DNA of 64,000 nucleotides from Candidatus Lloydbacteria bacterium RIFCSPHIGHO2_02_FULL_50_18 (GCA_001821395.1 MHLM01000012.1:32001-96000), one strand, 5' to 3'; shown: positions 1 to 52,100, numbered from the stretch's first letter. Notes: generated from the letters alone by a model not told the origin. Made by a program: numbers and translations.

Positions 1-47
1 TTGTTTCATATGCAAGCCTGTTTGGAAGTGTTTTGCCCCACTTCCGT

Positions 48-139
48 GGGAGAATCGAAGCCTTTTCCCTTATTTTTGAAGGATTCATATCCTGAAAAAA
101 TGGGAAATGGGCACTGAAACTGTAAGTTTCGATTCTCCC
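48..139. repeat. Structured repeat element, copy 1 (about 92 nt); the second copy is at 3191-3283
   Basis: About 75% identity to 3191-3283 over roughly 90 nt. A terminal inverted repeat GGGAGAATCGAA...TTCGATTCTCCC encloses conserved inner hairpins (GGATTCATATCC; TTCCC/GGGAA). Confidence 0.6.
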
Positions 140-143
140 TACC

Positions 144-312
144 CGCACTAGGAACGAGCGTGATAAAAGGCCCTTCATAGGGCTTTTTATCACCGAGTGA
201 CGACGTGCGGGAGGCTTTGCCTACGCGCACTAGGATGAACAACGAGCGTGATAAAAGGCCCTTCATAGGGCTTTTTATCACCGAGTGACGACGTGCGGGA
301 GGCTTTGCCTAC
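144..312. repeat. Tandem direct repeat, 2 units (81 and 87 bp), each containing the terminator-like hairpin AAAAGGCCCTTCATAGGGCTTTTT
   Basis: The units are near-identical, with a 6-nt insertion in unit 2; they could be aligned directly by eye. Confidence 0.8.
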
Positions 313-496
313 TCAGCAGTCATTTTTGATCAACTTGAGCTTTTGGTGTGCTGCTCACAAAGAATATACGTTTTTTATGAAATACAGGTAAATGCAAAGC
401 ATTTTCTCCTTAAAAAATTAAACGTCGGCAATAAAATATTTTTTCTGAAATTCGTCAATAATTCCTAAAATATGTGATTTTAAGCATTTTTTGAAC

Positions 497-545
497 TTAT
501 CCACACCTGCTGTGCATAAAAACTGTGGATAAGTCTGTGGAAAGT
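497..545. promoter_or_regulatory. DnaA-box cluster: TTATCCACA (497-505), inverted TGTGGATAA (524-532) and degenerate TGTGGAAAG, next to an AT-rich tract (about 366-480)
   Basis: Two perfect consensus DnaA 9-mers in inverted orientation 18 bp apart, with an AT-rich tract just upstream. Confidence 0.4.
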
Positions 546-706
546 GGGTATAAAGGACATTATAATGACTTTTATTATGTCCTTTAGGAATTTGATTGAG
601 GGCGGCGTTGTGCCGTTTCACGGAAAGCAAAGAATTAATGTTACTACGTAACAAATTAAGCAACAGTACAATATATCTGACTTGAATAACGTAAATTGGG
701 TTTCAC

Positions 707-1126
707 ATGAAACTGAATAGTGAGAAACTTGAAAAAATGGGACAAATTACTGAAAAACAGCAAATAGGGAGGACCGGAGAGGATATTGCATGCTTGTTTC
801 TCGTGAAACGTGGCTTTCAAATCGTTGAGCGTAATTTTTGGAAGAAGGTCGGTGAAATAGATATTATTTGCACAAAAGAGGAAAAATTTTACTTTGTTGA
901 AGTAAAAACGATCGTAAAAAGAGGTGTTTCACGTGAAATGAGCGATAATTATCGTCCAGAAGATAATCTGCATGCTCAAAAGATCGTTCGACTTGGAAGA
1001 GCAATTGATATTTACCTTGAAGAGCAAAATATTGATGGTGATTGGGAAATACTTGGGGTCATGATAATTATTGACCCAAAGACTAAGATTGCAAAAGTGT
1101 CGCTTTTGGAAAATTTCGCCTGGTAG
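707..1126 (+). CDS. yraN: UPF0102 / YraN family endonuclease-like protein
   Basis: GEDIA...GF.IVERN...GEIDII...FVEVK motifs typical of the YraN family; the true start may be M11 at 737. Confidence 0.7.
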   Translation: MKLNSEKLEKMGQITEKQQIGRTGEDIACLFLVKRGFQIVERNFWKKVGEIDIICTKEEKFYFVEVKTIVKRGVSREMSDNYRPEDNLHAQKIVRLGRAIDIYLEEQNIDGDWEILGVMIIIDPKTKIAKVSLLENFAW

Positions 1127-1403
1127 TCTTTTCACGTGAAACATAATGAACGAGAAGGATGACGGACCCAGGTCATAAGGTCGTTTTGTCTATTATGGGT
1201 GTTTCACGTGAAATCCTGCCTCAAATCTGTCTTGATCATCGCTTTGTTTTTGCGGTTTTATGTTTAGTGAAAGATAACTACAAAGTATAAATGAGCATAG
1301 CGCTGCTTGGGGATTACTCTTGAATTTTTTATGAGTATAATATGGAAAAGACAATCTTTATGAACAGGTTGCGTAGTTTAAAATTCTATGATATAATATT
1401 TCC

Positions 1404-1688
1404 ATGACTGATTCAAAACGCACCGAGTTGACACTGCATGCGATCGAGATCATTCACGGATCTCGTCTTTCAAGCGACGAGAAGATGATGCTTGAGGGGA
1501 GAATCCCGTTTATCTCTGATTCCATGCTTGAAATGTTTGTGCAGGTTTGCGATGAAGATCCGTTCGGCGTTGATGCAATCGTTAAAAATCTAAAGAAGAA
1601 ACTTGATGCAGGAGGGAATTTAAAACGATTGCATGAGATCGTAAAACAGGAGCGCAGGGAAATCGAAGATTCATTAGTCCTAGGATAA
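1404..1688 (+). CDS. Hypothetical acidic protein (94 aa)
   Basis: Intact ORF preceded by an AT-rich promoter-like region with TATAAT; no recognizable domain. Confidence 0.4.
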   Translation: MTDSKRTELTLHAIEIIHGSRLSSDEKMMLEGRIPFISDSMLEMFVQVCDEDPFGVDAIVKNLKKKLDAGGNLKRLHEIVKQERREIEDSLVLG

Positions 1689-1698
1689 TAAATTTTAT

Positions 1699-2835
1699 AT
1701 GAGCGAGAAAATTCAGCAACAGGCAGAAGACGGAGAGGTGCAGCAAATTTCTTCCTTGACTGACATTGATTCAAGCACTAGGACGACAAGCACCGAGGAA
1801 GGTGATGGCGTTGTCACGGGTGATATCGGTACATCAGAAACGGTTTTTCCGCAGTTTGGTACCGTCGGAGATGTGGGAGAAACCTATGAATTGACGAGTA
1901 ATTTTTCCGAACTCGGTGATCCGATGCAAACTCTGGAACGATCACAACTACTTTGGGATGCACTTGCGCCGGAGGTTGTTGATCGACTCCTCGCAGATTC
2001 TCCGTTTAGCAGCGAGGAATTTTTGGCACTACCTGATGCAGATAAGAATGCCGCGCTTAATATCGTTGAAGATAGCGCAGTCGCTGCTGCCATGGCGCAG
2101 GAAGCCCCATCCGCCCGTGTCGCAGTGGTTTCATCAGAACTTACCCTAGCTGACGATCAGTCGATCGCGGCGAAGTCGATGAGGTGGGGTCGGTCTCTCG
2201 GTGCCGCATTAATAGTGGGGCTTGGCGCAACCCTTGCGCCGGGTGTTGCAAGTGCCGGTGGTCATGATGATAATATTTTCAAGTCATTTGGAGATAGCAT
2301 CGTGCATGGAGTTAAAAGAGATGTGCGTGAGGCGGGGAGAGATAGCGGCGCGGTGTTGGGAGGGGTTGTGCGCATCATCATCGATCGTTCGGTAAATCAG
2401 ACAGCAGTGCAAATACTTGGAGCGGCCGGAGTGCCGGCACAGCAGGCCCCGGAGGAAGTTGTTGTTGTGCCGAGAAGTGTTCCTGGCGCGTATGGCGGCG
2501 GATACGGAGGTCAATACGAAGTACGCGGACGGAGTGCCGGCGAATACGAAGCGCATGGATACGGCGGTCGCGGAATGGAGAGCAGTGAGCGTATTCGCAT
2601 AAAACAGGATATTAACCGTCTCGTGTCACAAGAGAGGGCACTCACAATTCAGGCGGAAAATTCACGGAGAACGGTAATGCAAACTTACGCTCAGTTGAGC
2701 GGGAGCAGAAATGACCTGAGTCTTCGGGCAAGATATGATGCAGAGCGGAGCCAGTACGAATATACCGTGGGAATGATTAGGACTCTCCGGGGTCAGATCG
2801 GCGACCTGAGCGGTAGACTCAGTCAGACGCCATAA
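1699..2835 (+). CDS. Hypothetical acidic protein with a central hydrophobic segment, a GYGG-repeat region and a C-terminal coiled coil (378 aa)
   Basis: Long ORF ending in a terminator hairpin at about 2857-2890; the composition (TM-like GAALIVGLGATLAPGVASAGG, GYGGGYGG repeats) suggests a surface or secreted protein. Confidence 0.5.
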   Translation: MSEKIQQQAEDGEVQQISSLTDIDSSTRTTSTEEGDGVVTGDIGTSETVFPQFGTVGDVGETYELTSNFSELGDPMQTLERSQLLWDALAPEVVDRLLADSPFSSEEFLALPDADKNAALNIVEDSAVAAAMAQEAPSARVAVVSSELTLADDQSIAAKSMRWGRSLGAALIVGLGATLAPGVASAGGHDDNIFKSFGDSIVHGVKRDVREAGRDSGAVLGGVVRIIIDRSVNQTAVQILGAAGVPAQQAPEEVVVVPRSVPGAYGGGYGGQYEVRGRSAGEYEAHGYGGRGMESSERIRIKQDINRLVSQERALTIQAENSRRTVMQTYAQLSGSRNDLSLRARYDAERSQYEYTVGMIRTLRGQIGDLSGRLSQTP

Positions 2836-2856
2836 GGTGTTGATCAGCGTCTGGTG

Positions 2857-2890
2857 AAAAACATCCCATATTCGATGGGGTGTTTTTATT
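2857..2890 (+). terminator. Rho-independent terminator
   Basis: Hairpin AACATCCCAT...ATGGGGTGTT followed by TTTTTATT. Confidence 0.5.
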
Positions 2891-2956
2891 ATCGCAAACG
2901 AGATAGTTGCCCTAATTTGAATTTTAAGCTACTCTTGCGACACGACCGAAGTATAT

Positions 2957-3037
2957 CGGGGCGTGGTGTAATGGCTAACATGTCTGGTTTTCAGGATAGA
3001 GACCAGATGACAAGAGACAGCGTGACGTAGTGAGGAA
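2957..3037 (+). pseudogene. Partial tRNA-Pro copy: the 5' half duplicated with its upstream flank, an altered 15-nt anticodon loop and no T-arm
   Basis: 2948-2990 is near-identical to 3038-3080, but the downstream sequence does not fold into a T-arm or acceptor stem. Confidence 0.6.
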
Positions 3038-3046
3038 GAAGTATAT

Positions 3047-3119
3047 CGGGGCGTGGTGTAACGGCTAACATGTCTGGTTTGGGACCAGATGACTCCGGGT
3101 TCGAATCCCGGCGCCCCGA
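3047..3119 (+). tRNA. tRNA-Pro (anticodon UGG)
   Basis: Manual cloverleaf: 7-bp acceptor CGGGGCG/CGCCCCG, D-arm, anticodon stem TCTGG/CCAGA with loop TTTGGGA, T-arm CCGGG-TTCGAAT-CCCGG, discriminator A, and no encoded CCA. Confidence 0.85.
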
Positions 3120-3163
3120 CTAAATAAAGAAAAGACCTTCAAGGAGGTCTTTTCTTTATTTAG
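3120..3163. other. Perfect 18-bp-stem hairpin (CTAAATAAAGAAAAGACC / GGTCTTTTCTTTATTTAG)
   Basis: Read directly from the sequence immediately downstream of the tRNA. Confidence 0.7.
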
Positions 3164-3190
3164 TCGAAGGCGCGAGGAGCACAGCTCCGA

Positions 3191-3283
3191 GAGGGATTCG
3201 AAGCCCTTCTCCCATATTTATGAAGGATTCTTATCCTGAGTAAATGGGAAAGGGGTACTGACGCAGTAGGCGTCGAAATTCCC
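3191..3283. repeat. Structured repeat element, copy 2, fused to a duplicated 3' end of tRNA-Pro (TTCCCGGCGCCCCGACTAAATAAA at about 3275-3300)
   Basis: Aligns to 48-139. The tRNA 3'-terminal 24 nt is repeated about 160 bp downstream of the intact tRNA. Confidence 0.6.
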
Positions 3284-3412
3284 GGCGCCCCGACTAAATA
3301 AAAAAACTGCCTTTTGGCGGTTTTTTTATTAAATCTTCAAGATTGAAAATCACCTGCGGCGGTAAGGGTAGATCTCAGTTTTCAATGACTGAGAAGGCGT
3401 CATCGATAAAAA

Positions 3413-3430
3413 GTGTTTCACGTGGAACAC
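3413..3430. promoter_or_regulatory. 18-bp near-palindrome GTGTTTCACGTGGAACAC upstream of the che operon
   Basis: Belongs to the TTTCACGTGAAA motif family clustered at 700-1213; lies 50-90 bp upstream of the cheW start. Confidence 0.4.
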
Positions 3431-3476
3431 CTGCGAGCTCGCAATGAATAACTTCTCACGATAGAATGAGTTTCTT

Positions 3477-4058
3477 GTGAAGAATCCCGAATACGAAGAA
3501 GGTGGACATGATGAAAAAAAAGACCTATTCCTTTTTGAGTTGGACGGGGATCTTTACGCTGTACCCGTTGAACTCGTCGATCGAGTAATGAAAATACCTC
3601 CGATCACTCCGATCCCCAATGCGCCGGCGGCAATTGTTGGTATCTTCCACTTGCGCGGAAAGGTCGTTTTGACCCTCGACCTCTCAAGTCGTATGGGTAT
3701 TTCCAGAATGAAGCCCTTAAGTCAAAACTTTCTTTTTGTCGTGCGGTATAAAAATGATCAGTTCGCCATTTTGATCGATACACCTAAGGTCATTGTACAC
3801 ATCCCAGCGAGCGAAATTCATCGTCCCGACTCCATTCTTACGGCCCGATTATCACCGCAATATGTCCAGGGAACCTTCATGTTTCAGGAGGTAACAAAAG
3901 TGAAAGTCCCTAATCATTCGATCTTCATCGAGCATATTGGTGGGGTTGACCGGAGGCCTGAAGAAATTCCACCATCACTTCGACCGGTACTCCTCCTTGA
4001 CCTTGAGCGAGTCCTTGACCAGGAGGATCTTCAGCACATGTTTATTTCACAGGAGTAA
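3477..4058 (+). CDS. cheW: Chemotaxis coupling protein CheW
   Basis: CheW-like domain (FxLRGxVxxVLDL-like motifs); an alternative ATG start at 3509 has a GAAGGTGG ribosome-binding site. Confidence 0.8.
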   Translation: MKNPEYEEGGHDEKKDLFLFELDGDLYAVPVELVDRVMKIPPITPIPNAPAAIVGIFHLRGKVVLTLDLSSRMGISRMKPLSQNFLFVVRYKNDQFAILIDTPKVIVHIPASEIHRPDSILTARLSPQYVQGTFMFQEVTKVKVPNHSIFIEHIGGVDRRPEEIPPSLRPVLLLDLERVLDQEDLQHMFISQE

Positions 4059-4079: not shown

Positions 4080-4442
4080 ATGGCAAAGGATATAAAAATA
4101 CTTCTTGTTGATGACTCAGCTTTTATGCGTAAGGTATTGCGTGACATCTTTGAAAGTGCCGGATATACGAATTTCATAGAGGCGGGAAATGGAACAGAAG
4201 CGATCCAAAAATTCAGAACAGAGAAGCCCGATTTTATCTTTCTTGATATCATCATGCCTGACGTGAACGGTATGGATGTACTTCGTGAGATCGGGAGCGA
4301 AGCGAAGGTCATCGTCGTATCGGCGGTTGGACAAAAGGATGTGATCGAGCAGGCAAAAACACTTGGTGCACTCGATTACATCGTAAAGCCTTTTGATCGT
4401 GATCAGGTGCTCGAAAAGGCCCAGCGGCATTTCGGTCAGTAA
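4080..4442 (+). CDS. cheY: Chemotaxis response regulator CheY
   Basis: Single receiver domain with DD...D...K residues, 120 aa. Confidence 0.85.
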   Translation: MAKDIKILLVDDSAFMRKVLRDIFESAGYTNFIEAGNGTEAIQKFRTEKPDFIFLDIIMPDVNGMDVLREIGSEAKVIVVSAVGQKDVIEQAKTLGALDYIVKPFDRDQVLEKAQRHFGQ

Positions 4443-4456
4443 GTAGCCCGACACGC

Positions 4457-5566
4457 TTGGTCAAATGTTTCATGAATAGTCAACCAACCGAAAAGATCCG
4501 TGTACTTATTGCAGATGATTCTTTTTTTATACGCACCTATCTTCAGGAGGTATTGAAAGCAAGTGAATCGATCGAAGTCGTTGGGCTTGCTTCATCGGGA
4601 ATCGAAGTAGTTGAGTTGGCACGTAAATTAAAACCCCATGTGATCACGATGGATTATCACATGCCGGGAAAAAATGGAATTGAAGCAACCGCAGAGATTA
4701 TGCGTGATGATCACCCGCTTCCGGCAATCATCATGCTTTCTGCTTTCGAGGGGGATGATGGCGAACATGTTCGAAAGACCCTTTTGTCCACCGGTGCCCA
4801 TGTGATCGAAAAACCGTCGGGAGAAGTGTCTCTTGATATAGAAAAGATTGCACGCACTATCGTACAACGGATCGAGGAGGTCGGGTGGACCGAAGTACGC
4901 ATGCGACACTCCTTTGCCCGCATGAAACACACTAGGGAACGAAGCCTAAATGGGCAGGATCGCACACTGCCATTTTCGGGGGTTGTCGTGATCGGTGCGT
5001 CTACCGGTGGGCCATCCTTGGTTGAAGGTTTGATCAAGTCGTTTGATCAGTATCACGGAATTTCGATCGTGATAGTTCAGCACATGTCTGCATATTTTAC
5101 TTCGCTGTTTGCTGAGCGGCTCGGACACGTTACCTCATTCCGTGTTTATGAAGCAAAGAGCGGAGACGTTCTTCTTCCGAACGATGCCCTCGTTGTCCCC
5201 GGTGGTTCTTTTTTGTTACCTACTTCGCTACCGGGTTCCCCGATGTGCAGCTTTGATATTATCGAAAGTGAAACTCATGCACCGGAGGCGCAGATCGACA
5301 ATTCGATGCGCGCGATAGCCGCTTGTTACCAGGGACCAATCGCCGGCGTATTACTTTCCGGAATGGGAAATGACGGAGCCGTCGGACTGCACGCACTGCG
5401 ATTGCGTGGAGGACTTTGTCTTGCGCAGGATCCGGAAACAGCACCGGTGCGTTCTATGCCGGCGCATGCGATTGATAGCGGTGAGGCAGTCGGAGTGCGG
5501 ATAGAGGATATCCCCGAACGTATCATGAGTCATTTTCGTCGACCATCACCGTCACGGCTTGCGTGA
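4457..5566 (+). CDS. cheB: Protein-glutamate methylesterase CheB (receiver plus methylesterase domains)
   Basis: N-terminal receiver domain followed by a CheB methylesterase domain (GASTGGP, HM..F, GG motifs). Confidence 0.85.
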   Translation: MVKCFMNSQPTEKIRVLIADDSFFIRTYLQEVLKASESIEVVGLASSGIEVVELARKLKPHVITMDYHMPGKNGIEATAEIMRDDHPLPAIIMLSAFEGDDGEHVRKTLLSTGAHVIEKPSGEVSLDIEKIARTIVQRIEEVGWTEVRMRHSFARMKHTRERSLNGQDRTLPFSGVVVIGASTGGPSLVEGLIKSFDQYHGISIVIVQHMSAYFTSLFAERLGHVTSFRVYEAKSGDVLLPNDALVVPGGSFLLPTSLPGSPMCSFDIIESETHAPEAQIDNSMRAIAACYQGPIAGVLLSGMGNDGAVGLHALRLRGGLCLAQDPETAPVRSMPAHAIDSGEAVGVRIEDIPERIMSHFRRPSPSRLA

Positions 5567-7250
5567 TATAATCAACCATATGCCGTTGAACATGAATAAG
5601 TATAAGGATCTCTTCTGCGCGGAAGCAGAGGAGCAGCTTGCAATACTCTCTCGTTTATTGCTTGTGCTTGAGAAATCAACAAACCACATGGAATACCATG
5701 AGGAGTTAATGCGCAGCGCACACACCATCAAGGGTGCCGCTGCGACAATGGGGTATGCTTCAATGGCAGAACTTGCTCATGCGGTTGAAGATATTTTTCA
5801 TGCAGCCGAGCGGGGTGCCCTTGTGGTTGATACACGGATCATTACACTATTGCTCTCAGCGATCGACCTCATGACGCATTCACTCGCCTCGATCAAGAGT
5901 AGTGACGTTGAACTTCCCAGTAAGGAAGTTGTTGATAAATTGAAAAAAATTCTTGAAGAAAATGCCGGTGTACAGACCGTTGTTCCGCAAGAAAAAACCG
6001 GTACTGATGTTCAGCAATTGCATATCGTCACTCCGGATACCATCAAGGTTAGTGTCGAAAAACTCGATACATTAATGGGGCTATTTGAGGAAATGTTGAT
6101 GCTCAGACTGAAGGCAAATTCAATGATCGAGCCTGCTGTGGAATTTGTTCGGACGACGACTGACCCTGTATTGAAGCAGCAATTATTCTTCATTGCCGAG
6201 CTCGAGGCATTGTTTGCAGAACTTGCGCGGCTCATGACTGAGCATCAAGACGCTCTTCTTGCTATTCGCCTCGTTCCCCTTGAACAGATCTTCGGCCAGT
6301 TCCCTCGTATGGTGAGGGATCTGTCGGTGCGAGAAGAAAAAGCGATCGAATTTTTTGTTGAAGGTGGAGATATCGCCTTAGACCGTACCGTGATCGAGGG
6401 CCTTGGCGGTGCACTAGCGCATCTTCTTCGCAATGCGGTCGACCACGGGATCGTTTCACGTGGAACAATATCTCTTTCGGCGGTAAGGGAAAAGGGACGC
6501 GTACGGATCTTTGTGGAGGATTCGGGCGCCGGGATCGATTATGGGCGGGTCAAAGAGGTGGCAACGGCTCAAGGGGTAGGCACGAGTGAAGAGATCGCAC
6601 TTATGGGAAACGAACAGCTCGCAGAATTATTGTTTCATCAAAATATGTCGACCAACAAAGTGGTGACGGATATTTCGGGAAGAGGAGTTGGTCTTGCTGC
6701 GGTGCGCGGGTTTGCTGAGGATGTCGGAGGACGCGTTGAAGTCATTTCTCCCATTCCGGAAATAGGGAAGGGGACCCGCTTTGTTCTTGATCTTCCGATC
6801 TCTCTTGCAACAGTGCGCGTGCTCGTCGTGCAAGCACGAGGGTACACATTTGCGATACCTTTCGATCATGTCATTAAAACACTTCACTTTGAAACGCGGG
6901 AGGTCGGTGACGCGGCGCATCAGGAAACACTTTTTCTCGACGGGACATTGTTGCCGCTGATGCATCTCGATAAAATTCTCAAACTATCATACGGTTCCGC
7001 TCCATCTCCGGAACATTCTCGAACCGCGGTGTTGATCCGAACGGGAGAGAAAACATTTCTTCTCGAAGTAGATGCGTGCACGGGTGAACAAGACCTATTG
7101 ATCAAATCGCTTCCTCCGGTTCTCCGTAATAATAAGGGATTTTCAGGCTCAGCGCTTCTCCCGGACGGACGAACAATATTATTACTCGATGGCCATGGTT
7201 TACTCATACAAGCAATAGACGATATACTGAACACCCAATCATTATCTTAA
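5559..7250 (+). CDS. cheA: Chemotaxis histidine kinase CheA
   Basis: Hpt domain (HTIKGAAATMG), HATPase domain (HLLRNAVDHGI, GRGVGL) and a C-terminal CheW-like domain; overlaps the cheB stop by 8 nt. Confidence 0.9.
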   Translation: MRDIINHMPLNMNKYKDLFCAEAEEQLAILSRLLLVLEKSTNHMEYHEELMRSAHTIKGAAATMGYASMAELAHAVEDIFHAAERGALVVDTRIITLLLSAIDLMTHSLASIKSSDVELPSKEVVDKLKKILEENAGVQTVVPQEKTGTDVQQLHIVTPDTIKVSVEKLDTLMGLFEEMLMLRLKANSMIEPAVEFVRTTTDPVLKQQLFFIAELEALFAELARLMTEHQDALLAIRLVPLEQIFGQFPRMVRDLSVREEKAIEFFVEGGDIALDRTVIEGLGGALAHLLRNAVDHGIVSRGTISLSAVREKGRVRIFVEDSGAGIDYGRVKEVATAQGVGTSEEIALMGNEQLAELLFHQNMSTNKVVTDISGRGVGLAAVRGFAEDVGGRVEVISPIPEIGKGTRFVLDLPISLATVRVLVVQARGYTFAIPFDHVIKTLHFETREVGDAAHQETLFLDGTLLPLMHLDKILKLSYGSAPSPEHSRTAVLIRTGEKTFLLEVDACTGEQDLLIKSLPPVLRNNKGFSGSALLPDGRTILLLDGHGLLIQAIDDILNTQSLS

Positions 7251-11174: not shown

Positions 11175-11206
11175 AAGAGCGCATTACTGCGCTCTTTGTA
11201 TTTTTG
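11175..11206 (+). terminator. Rho-independent terminator after tRNA-Gly
   Basis: AAAGAGCGCATTACTGCGCTCTTT followed by a T-run. Confidence 0.6.
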
Positions 11207-11467
11207 TGAACCACAGCGATGTTTCGCCAGCGGGTGAAACTGCAGGGTGGGGCCACGAATACTTACATTTTTTGTGCGAGTAGCTATAAAAAATCTAGTG
11301 ATTCGTGATCTGGGATACGAAACACTACCGATAGATGGTTGTTTTGTATGTGCGCGGAAGGCTGCCAGAATGACTTGGTCAGGGCTAAATCGGAAGGTTC
11401 TTCGACAACGACCGACTAATTTTTTCTTGTAACAGTGTTGCACGTATGGCGATGTCGGTTATATAGT

Positions 11468-12960: not shown

Positions 12961-14490
12961 TTATCTCGCGTACTCGATGCAGCGCATCTCACGGATAACG
13001 GTTATCTTGATCTCCCCGGGATATTTCATTTCCTGCTCTATTTGAAGAGCGATATCTCGTGCGAGTGCATGTGCCTCAAGGTCACTGATTGTCTGCGGTG
13101 TAACGAAGACACGCATTTCGCGGCCAGCCTGAAGCGCGTAGGCTTTTTCTACGCCCGGTTTTGCGCAAGCAATCTTCTCAAGTTCCTCAAGTTTTTTGAG
13201 ATAATTCTCCACCGACGCGCGTCGCGCACCAGGTCTTCCTCCTGAGATCGCATCGGCAGTCTGCACGATGATCGATTCGATCGTTTCATAAGGATATTCC
13301 TCATGGTGGGATTGCATTGCCTTCACGATGCGCTCATCTGCACCGAATTTCGCTAAGATGCGCCGTCCGATCTCCACATGAGTTCCTTGCACTTCATGGT
13401 CAAGCGCCTTTCCGATGTCATGGAAGAGCGCCCCCGCTCGTGCTATCTGCACATTTGCACCCAACTCCTCCGCAAGCATGCCGGAAATATGAGCCATTTC
13501 AATGGAATGCTGAAGCACGTTCTGTCCGTAACTCGTACGGAAGTAAAGCCGTCCGAGAATAGAGACAAGACGGGGATCCATGTTGAGCACGCCGCATTCG
13601 TAGCATGCTTGTTCACCCTTCTCTTTGATGATCTTATTGATGTCGAGGCTGGCTTTTTCCACGAGTTCTTCGATCTTGGAAGGCTGAATGCGTCCGTCGA
13701 GAATAAGATTCTCGAGTGCAACACGTGCGATCTGCCGTCGCACCGGGTCAAATGCGGAAATGATGATCGTTCCCGGAGTGTCATCAACAATGAGTTCAAC
13801 ACCGGCAACGCGCTCGAAGGTGCGGATGTTGCGCCCTTCTTTGCCGATGATCTTACCTTTGATCTCATCGTTTGGAATATTGACCGCTGAGGTCATGATG
13901 TCACCGGCGGTTGACGCAGCGAGGCGTTGAATTGAGGTGGAAAGGATGTCTTTCGCGCGTCGGTCGAGCCGCTCGATGCCCTCGCGCTCCAGCTTTTGTA
14001 ATCGCACACGAAAATCTTCCTCGAACCGTTCGTCGATCTTTTTGACAAGGGCCTGCTTTGCTTCTTCCTCGGAGAGCCCCGCAACCTTCTCAAGTTCCTT
14101 CTCAACAAGCTGTTTCCGCTCTTCGATCGTTGTTTTGATGGCGCGGATCTCTTCTGCTTTTGCCTTGATATTGTCGACTTCCTTGTCGACGTCCTCTTGC
14201 TTTCGGTCGAGTGTTTCCTCCTTCTTTATGAGACGTTCTTCCGTTTTACGCCACTCGTGCTCCTTTTCCTTTTCCTGAGCACGCAATTCTTCGGCTTTTC
14301 TCTCCCCTTTTTTCTCTGATTCTTGAATGATCTTCTGCGCCTCTTCCTTTGCGGAAAGCAGCAATTGCTTGACCTCGATCTCGATCGTACCCTTTTTGCC
14401 TACAGTGAGAGCCCAGCGGATGACATATCCGGCGATAAGGCCGAAAATGCCGCTGCCCACACCAATGGCGATAACCATGGTGAAATCCAT
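12961..14490 (-). CDS. rny: Ribonuclease Y
   Basis: N-terminal TM helix, coiled coil, KH domain and HD domain (HSIEMAHISGMLAEELG, LFHDIGKA). Confidence 0.9.
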   Translation of the reverse strand: MDFTMVIAIGVGSGIFGLIAGYVIRWALTVGKKGTIEIEVKQLLLSAKEEAQKIIQESEKKGERKAEELRAQEKEKEHEWRKTEERLIKKEETLDRKQEDVDKEVDNIKAKAEEIRAIKTTIEERKQLVEKELEKVAGLSEEEAKQALVKKIDERFEEDFRVRLQKLEREGIERLDRRAKDILSTSIQRLAASTAGDIMTSAVNIPNDEIKGKIIGKEGRNIRTFERVAGVELIVDDTPGTIIISAFDPVRRQIARVALENLILDGRIQPSKIEELVEKASLDINKIIKEKGEQACYECGVLNMDPRLVSILGRLYFRTSYGQNVLQHSIEMAHISGMLAEELGANVQIARAGALFHDIGKALDHEVQGTHVEIGRRILAKFGADERIVKAMQSHHEEYPYETIESIIVQTADAISGGRPGARRASVENYLKKLEELEKIACAKPGVEKAYALQAGREMRVFVTPQTISDLEAHALARDIALQIEQEMKYPGEIKITVIREMRCIEYAR

Positions 14491-49774: not shown

Positions 49775-49937
49775 GGTACGAGTACCTCCTGTTGGTGCAC
49801 CTCCGCGGGGCAGAGATGAGCGCTACTATGAATGAACCACTGCTAGGACAATAGCCGTTTTATCGAGCCGGTGCAAACAGCAGTGATATTGTGTCTCAAG
49901 ACCCTACGACGAATTCTTCGTGAGTTGGAGTCAGTTG

Positions 49938-49995
49938 TGGATAGCTGCCCATAGCTCCCTCAGTCCTGATCTTATACACAGATTATACACAGAGT
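49938..49995. promoter_or_regulatory. DnaA-box-like repeats: tandem TTATACACA (two copies) plus TGTGGATAG
   Basis: CTTATACACAGATTATACACAGAG matches the TTATNCACA consensus twice in tandem. Confidence 0.35.
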
Positions 49996-50058
49996 TTTCC
50001 ACAAGATAAAAAAGTCCGCACATTGTGCGGACTGAAGTGTCGGTTAAAAGACCGTCTT

Positions 50059-51224: not shown

Positions 51225-52100
51225 ATGGCACAAGGGTCATTTCTTTTTTGGGTGCGGCGTCACCCATTCCTGCTGATCATATTATTGCTCGTACTTCTTG
51301 ATATTGTCTTGATATGCGGTCTTTTTGTGCGCGAACACCCGGTCCTACGCGTTTCTTTTCTTGATGTCGGGCAGGGCGATGCCGTGCTCATAGAAGCTCC
51401 GAACGGAAATCAGTTGCTCTACGATGCCGGCCCTCCATCCGGTGCAGCACTTCGCGCTTTGTCACGCGAGATGTCATTTTTGGATCGTTCCATTGATGTC
51501 GTGGTGTTATCACATCCCGACGCGGATCATATCGGCGGTTTTCCTGAAATATTCAAACGTTATCGGGTCGGAGCAGTCATTGAACCTCATGTTTCTTCAG
51601 CAACGGGTGTCTACGATGCAACGGAGAAGGCGATTGAGAATGAGCGTAGCGCTCACTTCGTTGCGAAGAGGGGGATGCAGATTGAACTCGGCGATGGTGT
51701 CGTTCTCGATATTCTTTATCCCGATGCCGATCTCCCCGGCGCCGATACCAACAGCGCTTCTGTCGTGATGCTTCTGCATTATGGTGCAACGGCCTTTCTC
51801 CTTTCCGGCGATCTCCCGCAGAAAGAAGAAGAGCAGATCGCAAGAGCATTTGGCGAACGATTGCATGCGCAAGTGCTCAAGCTCGGGCATCATGGGTCAC
51901 GGACCTCAACAAGTCCGTATTGGCTCGCAGCCATTGACCCTGAAACAGTCATCATTTCCGCCGGTCTGAACAATCGCTATGGGCATCCGCATAAAGAGGT
52001 ACTGGAGCTGCTTGAAAAAATAAGTATCCCGTATCTTACTACCTTTAAAGAAGGAACCGTTTCATACGAAAGCGATGGCGAAACCGTGTCCAGAGACTAG
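51225..52100 (+). CDS. Metallo-beta-lactamase-fold protein of the ComEC-associated type, with an N-terminal TM anchor
   Basis: FLDVGQGDAVLIE, VLSHPDADHIGG and KLGHHGSRTS motifs, the same as the C-terminal domain of full-length ComEC. Confidence 0.75.
   Translation: MAQGSFLFWVRRHPFLLIILLLVLLDIVLICGLFVREHPVLRVSFLDVGQGDAVLIEAPNGNQLLYDAGPPSGAALRALSREMSFLDRSIDVVVLSHPDADHIGGFPEIFKRYRVGAVIEPHVSSATGVYDATEKAIENERSAHFVAKRGMQIELGDGVVLDILYPDADLPGADTNSASVVMLLHYGATAFLLSGDLPQKEEEQIARAFGERLHAQVLKLGHHGSRTSTSPYWLAAIDPETVIISAGLNNRYGHPHKEVLELLEKISIPYLTTFKEGTVSYESDGETVSRD

What the first reader, a model, noticed from the sequence alone, without database searches (positions are those of the whole stretch)
48..3300. 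Two copies of a structured ~95-nt element bracket a 3-kb region that ends in tRNA-Pro with a duplicated 3' end
Elements at 48-139 and 3191-3283 share sequence and secondary-structure features: a 10-12-bp terminal stem plus conserved inner hairpins GGATTCNTATCC and TTCCC/GGGAA. Copy 2 is fused to a 24-nt repeat of the tRNA-Pro 3' end (3275-3300 versus 3096-3120). A second partial tRNA-Pro copy, the 5' half plus its flank, sits 90 bp upstream at 2948-3037. Duplicated tRNA ends are the classic scar of tRNA-targeted site-specific integration or excision, and the conserved hairpins could equally be a small RNA gene family. The bracketed region holds the yraN gene, two uncharacterized acidic genes, DnaA boxes and the tandem repeats.
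Basis: seen in the sequence. Interest (0 to 1): 0.55.

Follow-up and report, generated by a model that had tools for sequence, protein, structure and literature searches.

The report
tRNA-linked structured repeat family in Patescibacteria
The two ~95-nt elements are real members of a previously undescribed family of structured repeats that sit just behind tRNA genes in Patescibacteria and are built on a copy of that tRNA's own 3' end, much like the poorly understood tRNA-linked repeats of E. coli.

Summary
Both copies (47-140 and 3190-3284) score 100-110 bits with a covariance model, and nothing else in the 64 kb matches. They do not bracket an island. The yraN region between them is conserved core genome in four relatives.

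Each copy belongs to the tRNA gene upstream of it. Copy 2 follows tRNA-Pro. Copy 1 follows a tRNA-Gly about 270 nt before the window start and ends in 21 nt of that tRNA. A third copy follows tRNA-Arg.

About 20 further copies occur in Patescibacteria only, each behind one of 13 different tRNAs (9 amino acids). The 5' arm is the Watson-Crick complement of the neighbour's T loop, T stem and acceptor 3' strand. The 3' arm repeats them. A conserved P2/P3 core with strong covariation sits between the arms.

E. coli tRNA-linked repeats (RtT RNA) have the same architecture, but there is no sequence homology.

Best reading: a trailer RNA co-transcribed with the tRNA and processed through its borrowed tRNA end. 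Its function is unknown. A mobile-cassette reading is not excluded, because arrays, order swaps and losses occur among relatives.

This is a new variant of a known but unexplained kind.

The parts
24..45 (+). P0 hairpin of copy 1 (GGAAGTG / CACTTCC). It sits where the D and anticodon arms of a tRNA would be. The acceptor 5' copy expected upstream of it has decayed in this copy.
   Evidence: Across the family P0 stems differ in sequence but stay Watson-Crick paired.
47..140 (+). Copy 1 core. The P1 5' arm is GGGAG (the tRNA-Gly T-stem 5' strand) plus AATCGAA (complement of the T loop TTCGATT). Then come the P2 long hairpin, the P3 hairpin and the P1 3' arm.
   Evidence: cmsearch 100.2 bits; fold z = -6.6; alignment A4 and RNAalifold.
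128..148 (+). X* of copy 1: a 21-nt exact repeat of the 3' end of tRNA-Gly(GCC), covering T loop, T-stem 3' strand, acceptor 3' strand, discriminator and one more base. That tRNA lies outside the window at L002 9026-9099.
138..312 (+). Two 88-bp tandem units without a core. Each starts in a copy of the tRNA-Gly acceptor 3' strand (CCTAC[C/G]CGCAC), holds a terminator-like hairpin, and has GTGCGGG (the complement of CCCGCAC) before the next copy. Topology is the same as the element, minus the core.
   Evidence: D2, D11. Copy number is 1 or 2 in different metagenome contigs.
2948..3037 (+). Partial 5' copy of tRNA-Pro with its 9-nt flank. Its anticodon-arm-like hairpin has an enlarged loop (TCTGG-TTTTCAGGATAGAGA-CCAGA, about 2983-3011). 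It lies in the tRNA-Pro leader.
   Evidence: D5, D6. The hairpin alone is conserved upstream of tRNA-Pro in L044 and L045.
3047..3120 (+). tRNA-Pro(TGG), the gene to which copy 2 is tied.
   Evidence: ARAGORN and Rfam.
3117..3166 (+). T1: a perfect 22-bp palindrome that starts in the last bases of tRNA-Pro. Its inner part is GACCT-TCAAGG-AGGTC followed by TTTTCTTTATTT, so it is read as the first terminator. It is conserved in L043.
   Evidence: (I3). The simple terminator scan did not call it, because the stem runs into the T tract.
3176..3188 (+). P0 hairpin of copy 2 (GGAGC-ACA-GCTCC).
3190..3284 (+). Copy 2 core: P1 5' arm GGG + ATTCGAA (complement of the T loop TTCGAAT), then P2, P3 and the P1 3' arm.
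   Evidence: cmsearch 110.2 bits; 95.8% identical to the orthologous copy in L011.
3280..3302 (+). X* of copy 2: a 23-nt exact repeat of the tRNA-Pro 3' end plus 8 nt of its flank.
   Evidence: (D4).
3292..3335 (+). T2: a second terminator-like hairpin (CTGCC-TTTT-GGCGG followed by TTTTTTTATT). With T1 it gives the order tRNA, T1, element, T2.
   Evidence: (I4).
3318..3372 (+). Decayed remnant of a second core type ('type 2', motif CACCTGCGGCGGTA at 3351-3364). This type is intact behind tRNA-Arg and tRNA-Pro in L045.

Best explanation
What it is. The element is the Patescibacterial counterpart of the tRNA-linked repeats (TLRs) of E. coli. It is a module of about 135-185 nt lying directly behind a tRNA gene on the same strand, usually after that gene's first terminator.

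How it is built. Write X for the tRNA's T loop + T-stem 3' strand + acceptor 3' strand. The module is a shell made from X with a conserved core inside. The 5' arm is the Watson-Crick complement of X. It is interrupted by a variable hairpin, P0, at the place where the D and anticodon arms leave a tRNA. The 3' arm is a direct repeat of X. The arms pair into an acceptor/T-stem-like helix. The conserved three-way junction (P1, P2, P3) replaces the T loop.

Proposed working (inferred).
1. The module is transcribed from the tRNA promoter by read-through of terminator T1 and ends at T2.
2. It folds. Its borrowed tRNA end lets the enzymes that trim the tRNA cut it out and stabilise it. This organism encodes RNase Y, an RNase Z-like protein and a CCA-adding enzyme; RNase P was not looked for.
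3. The product is a small RNA whose level follows tRNA-operon transcription.
4. The P2/P3 core is the functional part, probably a binding site for a protein or an RNA. Its partner is unknown.
5. Arrays of modules grow, shrink and reshuffle by recombination between the repeated tRNA ends.

Shown here: the anatomy, the matching to the neighbouring tRNA, the covariation, the strand that folds, the distribution and the array dynamics. Inferred: transcription, processing and function.
For: 1. Family and position. About 20 distinct copies, all in Patescibacteria, lie 32-241 nt downstream of a tRNA on the same strand. The tRNAs are Pro-TGG, Pro-GGG, Gly, Arg-TCG, Arg-GCG, Val-TAC, Val-GAC, Ala, Ser, Trp and Leu.

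2. The shell matches the neighbour. The 3' flank scores 9.1 of 12 against the T-stem and acceptor 3' strands of its own tRNA, against 4.4 +/- 1.1 for other tRNAs. The 5' arm scores 9.9 of 12 against 6.2 +/- 1.2. The 7 nt before GAA are the exact complement of the neighbour's T loop in 17 of 17 loci the script anchored correctly. For the three loci it mis-anchored, reading the printed sequences by eye gives the same result, so 20 of 20 across five T-loop variants: TTCGATT, TTCGAAT, TTCGAGT, TTCGACT, TTCAAGT.

3. Structure. 97.2% of cells are paired against 82.6% in shuffles, and at most 58% with slid partners. 18 of 24 pairs have compensatory changes. G.U cells (11 or more) lie almost only on the tRNA-sense strand. 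Full units fold as outer stem + P0 + P1/P2/P3 with z = -5.7 to -6.7.

4. Constraint. Cores at orthologous loci are 83-96% identical while flanks are at the random level of 4-43%. In the sample chosen by CheW synteny, 4 of 6 Pro loci keep an intact core of 92 bits or more.

5. Precedent. E. coli TLRs carry 18-19 bp of the upstream tRNA or rRNA 3' end. [quoted passage not shown] The Rfam RtT consensus has a terminal stem GgGaaGGAU/AUCCuuCcC, which is the complement of the tRNA-Tyr end paired to the repeat. That is the same design as P1 here.

6. Layout in the window. The order tRNA-Pro, T1, element, T2 is present. In the Pro-GGG loci only 17 nt and no terminator separate tRNA and element.

7. 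Enzymes. RNase Y, a Lactamase_B (RNase Z-like) protein and a CCA-adding enzyme are encoded in or next to the window.
Against: There is no expression data.

A strong terminator usually stands between tRNA and element, and no promoter of its own is evident. Transcription would therefore depend on read-through.

The acceptor-like outer stem decays in many copies, including copies 1 and 2 in the window. Whole elements are lost or broken in some relatives: L043; L044 at the Gly site; L017 at the Arg site; L045 by an insertion. The element is therefore dispensable at any single locus.

The structure is equally stable as single-stranded DNA.

The conservation estimate rests on copies found with a strict sequence pattern, so it is biased towards intact copies.

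The function of E. coli tRNA-linked TLRs is itself unknown.
Confidence: 0.5

Rival explanations
1. A non-autonomous mobile DNA cassette. The single strand folds so that the complement arm and the repeat arm form a duplex identical to the 3' end of the target tRNA gene. A host recombinase acting in trans inserts it behind that tRNA. Successive insertions build arrays. This is comparable to the folded attP of phage CTX-phi or to integron attC sites.
For: Four positions are informative because the tRNA has a G.U pair there: Ala G3.U70 and G49.U65, Arg U2.G71, Leu G49.U65. At all four the 5' arm carries the Watson-Crick complement of the 3' strand rather than the tRNA's own 5' base.

Arrays exist, and the intact copy is next to the tRNA while decayed copies lie distal: L021 110 vs 40.5 bits, L014 108.8 vs 27.1, and L044.

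Module order differs between relatives. The standard core comes before the type-2 core in the window and after it in L045. The element comes before the inverted-repeat segment in L017 and after it in the window.

There is presence/absence among relatives (L043; L017 at the Arg site). The net length difference between L043 and the window is 174 nt, equal to the repeat period.

Copies with the same P3 variant (ACGC/GCGT) lie behind Pro, Ala and Arg tRNAs, each with a fully different matched shell.

The fold is stable as DNA.
Against: No recombinase, transposase or any shared protein lies near the copies.

There are no copies in viral contigs, phage records or plasmids.

No long form with cargo was seen.

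L043 keeps terminator T1 next to the tRNA. An exchange within X predicts that the native flank sits after the distal repeat.

Intact cores are retained at orthologous loci across 58-80% protein identity. This is unusual for decaying insertions, though re-insertion could mimic it.

No mechanism is known that would re-template both arms for each new tRNA.
Confidence: 0.25
2. The duplicated tRNA ends are scars of integrase-mediated integration or excision, and the two copies mark the ends of a 3-kb inserted region.
For: Direct repeats of tRNA 3' ends of 21-23 nt lie downstream of tRNA genes. A XerC-like tyrosine recombinase gene lies about 5 kb upstream of the window.
Against: The two copies repeat the ends of two different tRNAs, Gly and Pro.

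The region between them is syntenic core genome in L017, L011, L044 and L045.

Only 50-240 nt, with no genes, lie between each tRNA and its repeat.

An att duplication explains neither the inverted arm nor the conserved, covarying core.

The XerC-like gene is conserved in position in L017 and looks like a housekeeping gene.
Confidence: 0.03
3. A tRNA mimic that works as such. The RNA is recognised, perhaps charged, by the cognate aminoacyl-tRNA synthetase or by EF-Tu. Alternatively it acts as a decoy or sponge for factors that bind that particular tRNA.
For: Intact copies reproduce both the acceptor stem and the T stem of the cognate tRNA, and some end in CCA (L013, L037).
Against: The Ala copy has A3-U70 instead of the G3.U70 identity pair.

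The T loop is paired and the D and anticodon arms are absent.

The acceptor stem is the first part to decay, while the core persists.
Confidence: 0.07
4. A neutral by-product. Palindrome extension by template switching at tRNA terminators, plus tandem duplication, generates complement-and-repeat patterns with no function.
For: The 88-bp units at 138-312 show the same topology without any core and vary in copy number. The long palindrome (tRNA end, terminator, complement) is what snap-back copying would give.
Against: This cannot explain a 70-nt core that is 83-96% conserved with compensatory changes across genomes, or the conserved P0 hairpin placed exactly at the acceptor/T boundary.
Confidence: 0.1

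Closest known systems
E. coli tRNA-linked repeats (TLRs), including RtT RNA of the tyrT operon (Rfam RF00391) and the rrn-linked sRNAs RrA/RrB/RrF
   Same: They sit directly downstream of a tRNA or rRNA gene in the same transcription unit. Their 3' end repeats 18-19 bp of the 3' end of that gene. One to five lie per locus, at several loci (PMC8144298). A terminal stem forms between a complement of the tRNA end and the repeat (RtT consensus; sequence). The rrn-linked ones have the dual-terminator layout and are expressed by read-through. Tandem arrays occur.
   Different: There is no sequence or covariance-model similarity: RtT is found four times in the E. coli control locus and not at all here. 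The core is different. Here the complement arm extends over the whole T loop and the whole acceptor strand. A P0 hairpin gives a full tRNA-like shell. Several core subtypes share one frame. The host is Patescibacteria, not Enterobacteria.
att-site duplications of integrative elements at tRNA genes (P4-type integrases, genomic islands)
   Same: There is a direct repeat of the T loop-to-3' end segment of a tRNA gene downstream of the intact gene.
   Different: Here there is no integrase and no cargo, and only 50-240 nt lie between the repeats. There is also an inverted copy of the same segment and a conserved structured core. The native flank is not displaced to the distal repeat in the comparison with L043.
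Folded single-strand recombination sites (CTX-phi attP(+), integron attC). Recalled from established knowledge, not tested here.
   Same: A single strand folds into a duplex that imitates the target site, with extrahelical parts and a variable central region. Arrays arise by successive insertion. One strand is the active one.
   Different: No recombinase is linked. The target is a tRNA end, not dif or attI. No free form has been observed. The direct repeat is about 20 nt long.
tRNA-like domains of non-tRNA RNAs (tmRNA, YrlA/Y RNA, mascRNA, viral tRNA-like structures)
   Same: There is an acceptor/T-stem-like coaxial helix used as a handle for tRNA-processing enzymes.
   Different: Those RNAs keep a real T loop and are single-copy genes with a fixed sequence. 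Here the T loop is paired and replaced by a junction, and the stems change with the neighbouring tRNA. No Rfam match was found.

Membership tests
tRNA-linked repeats (TLR) as defined for E. coli (PMC8144298, citing Egan and Landy 1978 and Rudd 1999) | Located immediately downstream of a tRNA or rRNA gene, on the same strand and in the same operon | tested here: met
   All copies with an identifiable tRNA lie 32-241 nt downstream on the same strand.
tRNA-linked repeats (TLR) as defined for E. coli (PMC8144298, citing Egan and Landy 1978 and Rudd 1999) | About 18-19 bp at the 3' end identical to the 3' end of the upstream gene | tested here: met
   Copy 1 has 21 nt, copy 2 has 15 nt of the tRNA plus 8 nt of flank, and 12-16 nt are shared in several other loci. 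The third copy has decayed to 8 nt. Cognate tRNAs score 9.1 of 12 against 4.4 for non-cognate tRNAs.
tRNA-linked repeats (TLR) as defined for E. coli (PMC8144298, citing Egan and Landy 1978 and Rudd 1999) | Several loci per genome and one to several units per locus | tested here: met
   Three loci lie within 13 kb in this organism. Four copies behind four tRNAs on three contigs (L014, L017, L020) belong to one MAG. Tandem units occur in L021, L014, L044 and L045.
tRNA-linked repeats (TLR) as defined for E. coli (PMC8144298, citing Egan and Landy 1978 and Rudd 1999) | Transcribed with the upstream gene and released by processing | not testable with these tools
   No expression data are available. 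Only the layout tRNA, T1, element, T2 is seen.
Rfam RtT RNA (RF00391) | Match to the covariance model | tested here: not met
   No RtT match at E <= 10 in window 1-3500 or around an intact copy in L022. The same search finds four copies at 133-137 bits in the E. coli tyrT locus.
tRNA gene (RF00005 / ARAGORN) | Cloverleaf with D arm, anticodon arm and T loop | tested here: not met
   Neither tool calls the elements. The D and anticodon arms are replaced by one hairpin, and the T loop is paired.
Integrated element with tRNA att sites | Integrase and cargo between attL and attR | tested here: not met
   Only 50-240 nt without an ORF lie between the tRNA and the repeat. No protein is shared between non-syntenic loci.
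Integrated element with tRNA att sites | An empty site in relatives, bounded exactly by the repeat, with the native flank after the distal repeat | tested here: inconclusive
   L043 lacks the element and is 174 nt shorter, which is one repeat period. However, its terminator matches T1 (33 of 35 nt by eye count), the terminator on the tRNA side, not T2.
MITE (miniature inverted-repeat transposable element) | Fixed terminal inverted repeats and a short target-site duplication independent of context | tested here: not met
   The arms change with the neighbouring tRNA instead of being fixed. The repeat is always the tRNA end.
Folded single-strand recombination site (CTX-phi attP, integron attC) | A cognate tyrosine recombinase and a free circular form | not testable with these tools
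   Only a XerC-like gene lies 5 kb upstream. No circular or junction sequences were available.

The most novel reading that the evidence does not exclude
The module is a self-propagating cassette whose two arms are re-templated from whichever tRNA gene it lands behind. That would make it a mobile element, or an RNA-derived element, that targets tRNA ends programmably through a folded single-strand intermediate, without any mobility gene of its own. The near-identical cores, including the same P3 variant, found behind Pro, Ala and Arg tRNAs with completely different and perfectly matched shells would then record recent retargeting events.
Probability: 0.18. Interest if true: 0.85.

Novelty: new variant of a known kind. 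Interest (0 to 1): 0.58.

Why it matters
tRNA-linked repeats were first described in E. coli in 1978, and the tRNA-linked ones still have no known function (PMC8144298).

A second family with the same design now exists in Patescibacteria, a phylum far from E. coli with very small genomes. It is not homologous to the E. coli repeats. Its design is the complement of the tRNA end, then a core, then a repeat of the tRNA end. This says the design itself is selected or mechanistically favoured. It is not an enterobacterial accident.

The family adds:
- a strongly covarying candidate structured RNA that is absent from Rfam;
- a clear rule, that the arms track the neighbour's T loop, T stem and acceptor, which any model of origin must explain;
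- natural variants (core subtypes, arrays, losses) that make the two open questions testable by comparison. The questions are whether the borrowed tRNA end is a processing handle, and how the arms get matched.

Practical point: the repeats break metagenome assemblies at tRNA loci. Many contigs end there.

Tried and rejected
- Known RNA families. Rfam at gathering and at E <= 10 gave only tRNAs and chance miRNA-like hits on the terminator palindrome.
- Hammerhead or another small ribozyme. Considered by eye from the junction sequences. The core motifs do not fit, and Rfam has no hit.
- Peptide coding in the core. The short frame MKDSYPE is not kept, because compensatory changes alter it (read).
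- Promoter inside the element. No consistent -35/-10 pair.
- Phage or plasmid origin. No match in viral contigs (two patterns), phage records or plasmids.
- Linked protein. All-against-all tblastx of the loci found none shared by non-syntenic loci.
- Group I intron in a tRNA. The paper 10.1101/2025.07.03.662931 concerns long introns in anticodon loops and is not relevant here.
- Riboswitch or leader for the downstream gene. The downstream genes differ (cheW, cca, yraN, a secreted protein).
- Chance pattern hits discarded: L016, L028, L029, L032, L033, L038.
- Two gene look-ups failed because the start codons I chose were not the called ones.
- The simple terminator scan missed T1 and T2 because their stems run into the T tracts. 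They are argued from the sequence.

Full report

Yes. The segments at 48-139 and 3191-3283 align at 78-85% identity. The motif GAAGGATTCNTATCCTGA occurs exactly twice in 64 kb against 0.17 expected. Both copies fold much better than shuffled controls, with z = -6.6 and -4.2.

A covariance model built later from 18 family members scores them at 100.2 and 110.2 bits. It finds no other copy on that strand in the window.

tRNA-Pro(TGG) is at 3047-3120. Its last 15 nt plus 8 nt of flank recur at 3280-3302, fused to copy 2. The 5' part of the tRNA with 9 nt of flank recurs at 2948-2990 at 98% identity. Rfam has no family for the element.

**2. What the window alone hides**

The same organism is present on many Rifle-groundwater contigs. 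NCBI names it a Candidatus Lloydbacteria bacterium, so it belongs to the Patescibacteria. One contig, L002, extends 9.3 kb upstream of the window.

On it, tRNA-Gly(GCC) lies about 270 nt before window position 1, and tRNA-Arg(TCG) lies on the other strand. Copy 1 ends in TTCGATTCTCCCTACCCGCAC (128-148), an exact 21-nt repeat of the tRNA-Gly 3' end. A third copy follows tRNA-Arg on its strand (L002 8695-8787, 80.6 bits).

So every copy is tied to the tRNA gene just upstream of it. The two window copies do not form a pair.

**3. The 3-kb region is not an island**

L017, L011, L044 and L045 come from relatives whose proteins are 50-80% identical to those of the window. All keep the order cca, tRNA-Arg, tRNA-Gly, yraN, 94-aa gene, coiled-coil gene, tRNA-Pro, cheW operon.

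**4. The family**

A degenerate pattern scan of one genome per species found 11 true copies. All are in Patescibacteria MAGs labelled Lloydbacteria, Paceibacterota, UBA6023 or Saccharibacteria. A metagenome scan added more. The model found divergent and tandem copies.

Wherever a tRNA is detectable it lies 32-241 nt upstream on the same strand. The tRNAs are Pro-TGG, Pro-GGG, Gly, Arg-TCG, Arg-GCG, Val-TAC, Val-GAC, Ala, Ser, Trp and Leu. Nothing was found in viral contigs, phage records or plasmids.

**5. Anatomy**

Write X for the tRNA's T loop + T-stem 3' strand + acceptor 3' strand. An intact unit (for example L022, L017, L019, L021) reads, in order:

- the tRNA, ending in X
- terminator T1
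- the complement of the acceptor 3' strand
- 2 nt
- hairpin P0
- 3 nt
- the complement of the T-stem 3' strand
- the complement of the T loop
- GAA
- P2, a long hairpin with a GA/GA internal loop
- (U)ACUG
- P3, 4 bp with an NGUAR loop
- X*, a repeat of X

Full units fold as outer acceptor-like stem + P0 + P1/P2/P3, with z = -5.7 to -6.7.

The matching to the neighbouring tRNA is quantitative:

- 3' side: 9.1 of 12 for the cognate tRNA against 4.4 +/- 1.1 for others.
- 5' side: 9.9 of 12 against 6.2 +/- 1.2.
- T-loop complement: exact in 17 of 17 correctly anchored loci. It also reads as exact in the three loci the script mis-anchored (L018, L044, L045-Arg). That gives 20 of 20 over five T-loop variants.

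Four positions are informative because the tRNA has a G.U pair there. At all four the 5' arm carries the Watson-Crick complement of the 3' strand, not the tRNA's own 5' base. The arm is therefore an inverted copy of X, not a copy of the tRNA's 5' half. In the Ala copy the alanine identity pair G3.U70 is lost.

In copies 1 and 2 of the window the outermost (acceptor) part of the 5' arm has decayed.

**6. Structure and strand**

On the model-fitted alignment of 21 distinct sequences, 97.2% of cells pair. The figure is 82.6% in shuffles and at most 58% with slid partners. 18 of 24 pairs show changes on both sides. RNAalifold on an independent MAFFT alignment gives the same helices.

G.U cells (11 or more) lie on the tRNA-sense strand, with almost no A.C cells. 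The folding strand is therefore the sense strand.

P0 stems differ in sequence between copies but stay perfectly paired.

The fold is as stable with DNA parameters as with RNA parameters. Folding cannot tell RNA from single-stranded DNA.

**7. Conservation and turnover**

Between orthologous loci the core is 83-96% identical, as conserved as the tRNA, while flanks are at the random level. That sample was selected by a sequence pattern and so is biased towards intact copies.

An unbiased sample chosen through CheW synteny gives the following.

| Locus | Source | Score or state |
|---|---|---|
| Pro | window | 110 bits |
| Pro | L011 | 108.7 bits |
| Pro | L044 | 109 bits |
| Pro | L046 | 92.7 bits |
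| Pro | L045 | 49.7 bits, broken by a 55-nt insertion |
| Pro | L043 | core absent |
| Gly | window | 100 bits |
| Gly | L017 | 93.7 bits |
| Gly | L045 | 48 bits |
| Gly | L044 | 19 bits |
| Arg | window | 80.6 bits |
| Arg | L017 | none |
| Arg | L045 | a different core type |

L043 is the closest relative, with CheW 87% identical. It is 174 nt shorter between tRNA-Pro and cheW, exactly the repeat period. Its terminator nevertheless matches T1 rather than T2, so the boundary is ambiguous.

Arrays occur, with the intact unit next to the tRNA and broken units distal (L021, L014, L044).

A second core type carries the motif CACCTGCGGCGGTA and shares the P1/GAA/P3 frame. It precedes the standard core in L045 and follows it, decayed, in the window at 3318-3372.

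Behind tRNA-Gly, the element comes before a 190-nt inverted-repeat segment in L017 and after it in the window.

The 88-bp tandem units at 138-312 have the same repeat-complement-repeat topology without a core. They vary between one and two copies among contigs.

**8. Comparison with what is known**

The closest known objects are the tRNA-linked repeats of E. coli. According to PMC8144298:

- there are 22 units at ten loci;
- the tRNA-linked ones have no known function;
- the repeat is proposed to be the signal for 3' processing.

I fetched the tyrT locus. Rfam finds four RtT units there, and the RtT consensus has a terminal stem in which a complement of the tRNA-Tyr end pairs with the repeat. 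That is the same design as P1 here.

The same searches find no RtT similarity in the window or around an intact copy. This is therefore an analogous family, not a homologous one.

It goes beyond the E. coli design in four ways:

- the complement arm covers the whole of X;
- P0 completes a tRNA-like shell;
- several core subtypes share one frame;
- the host phylum is different.

**9. How it most likely works**

I favour, at about 0.5, a trailer RNA.

- It is transcribed from the tRNA promoter through T1 and stopped at T2. That layout is present for copy 2, and the Pro-GGG loci have no terminator between tRNA and element.
- It is then cut out and stabilised because its arms rebuild the acceptor/T-stem helix and trailer of the neighbouring tRNA.
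- RNase Y, an RNase Z-like protein and a CCA-adding enzyme are encoded here.
- The conserved P2/P3 core would be the working part. Its partner is unknown.

Transcription, processing and function are all inferred.

The main rival, at about 0.25, is a non-autonomous DNA cassette that inserts behind tRNAs as a folded single strand.

- For it: the inverted-copy rule, the array polarity, the order swaps and the losses.
- Against it: no enzyme, no free form, no cargo, and the T1 result in L043.

The island or integrase-scar reading is contradicted by synteny. A true tRNA mimic is unlikely because identity elements and the T loop are lost. A purely neutral by-product cannot explain the covarying core.

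**10. Verdict**

The "bracketed region" interpretation is rejected. The "small structured RNA/element family" interpretation is supported and sharpened.

This is a new, non-homologous variant of the old and unexplained class of tRNA-linked repeats. Interest is moderate to good (0.58). It offers a strong new structured motif, an unusual rule of neighbour-matched arms, and a comparative handle on an open question. It has no demonstrated function.

Noticed in passing
window 697-713, 793-809, 923-939, 1126-1142, 1198-1214, 3412-3428, 6453-6466: The palindrome GTTTCACGTGAAAC occurs 7 times in the window with at most 1 mismatch, against 0 expected. Five copies cluster around yraN, and one overlaps its start codon. 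One lies upstream of cheW. Similar sites lie upstream of cheW in L043-L045 and near yraN in L017. It is probably a binding site for a regulator.
   Followed up: partly
window 497-532; also 49936-50003: Three DnaA-box-like 9-mers lie within 36 bp between tRNA-Gly and yraN, and the same arrangement is conserved in L017 (about 6425-6450). A second cluster of four near-consensus boxes lies near 50 kb. Which of the two, if either, is the replication origin was not resolved; GC skew is positive over most of the window.
   Followed up: partly
window 2983-3011 (within 2948-3037); L044 about 3124-3152; L045 about 4420-4450: The tRNA-Pro leader holds a hairpin that copies the tRNA's anticodon stem but has a 15-nt loop (TTTTCAGGATAGAGA). 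The hairpin is conserved in relatives with only about 60% CheW identity. The longer 5'-half copy (acceptor and D arm, 98% identical) is specific to the window lineage.
   Followed up: partly
L037 about 4700-4790; L013 about 740-1050 (minus strand): Tandem 5'-half pseudo-copies with enlarged anticodon loops lie upstream of tRNA-Pro(GGG). This parallels the 5'-half copy upstream of tRNA-Pro(TGG) in the window.
   Followed up: no
window 3318-3372 (motif 3351-3364); L045 1108-1190 and 4632-4720; L013 3403-3416: There is a second core type ('type 2', CACCTGCGGCGGTA) with the same P1/GAA/P3 frame but a different P2. It is intact in L045 behind tRNA-Arg and tRNA-Pro and decayed in the window downstream of copy 2.
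   Followed up: partly
L014 7052-7149; L013 5464-5545: A third core subtype is found behind tRNA-Leu (L014). The L013 copy has a Leu-like X* but no intact tRNA upstream.
   Followed up: partly
window 11206-11225; L017 about 5545-5565 (minus strand): The motif GTGAACCACAGCGAT[A/G]TTTC follows the terminator of tRNA-Gly(TCC) in the window and that of tRNA-Arg in L017. About 60 nt of partly similar sequence follow in each case. This may be another small element linked to tRNA trailers. tRNA-Gly(TCC) has no copy of the main element.
   Followed up: no
L002 9100-9290 (upstream of the window); L017 6040-6250: A segment of about 190 nt is bounded by 17-bp inverted repeats (GTTGAGTGAAGCGGAA / TTCCGCCTCACTCAAC). 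It contains a long terminator-like palindrome and a decayed copy of the tRNA-Gly T arm and acceptor strand (CTTACCCGCAT). It lies on opposite sides of the element in the two genomes.
   Followed up: partly
L021 about 555-610; L045 about 4776-4832: The same insertion of about 55 nt (CGACCAAGAAAATAATGAGC...GTGGTGAA) interrupts P2 of a standard core at two different tRNA loci in two different genomes. It is either a nested mini-insertion or another P2 variant.
   Followed up: no
window 138-312; L001, L007: The 88-bp tandem unit is present twice in the window and in most contigs, but once in L001 and L007. This is strain-level copy-number variation.
   Followed up: yes
window 12961-14490 (-), 51225-52100 (+); L001 7234-8721 (-): Genes for RNase Y, a Lactamase_B-family protein (a possible RNase Z) and a CCA-adding enzyme lie in or next to the window. 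The cca gene starts about 60 nt downstream of the third copy. No integrase, transposase or reverse transcriptase was seen among the genes annotated for most of the 64 kb window. A XerC-like gene lies 5 kb upstream of the window.
   Followed up: partly
L043 start, L046 start, L027, L030, L023, L034: Many metagenome contigs begin or end inside or next to the element or the tRNA. The repeats apparently break assemblies at these loci.
   Followed up: no
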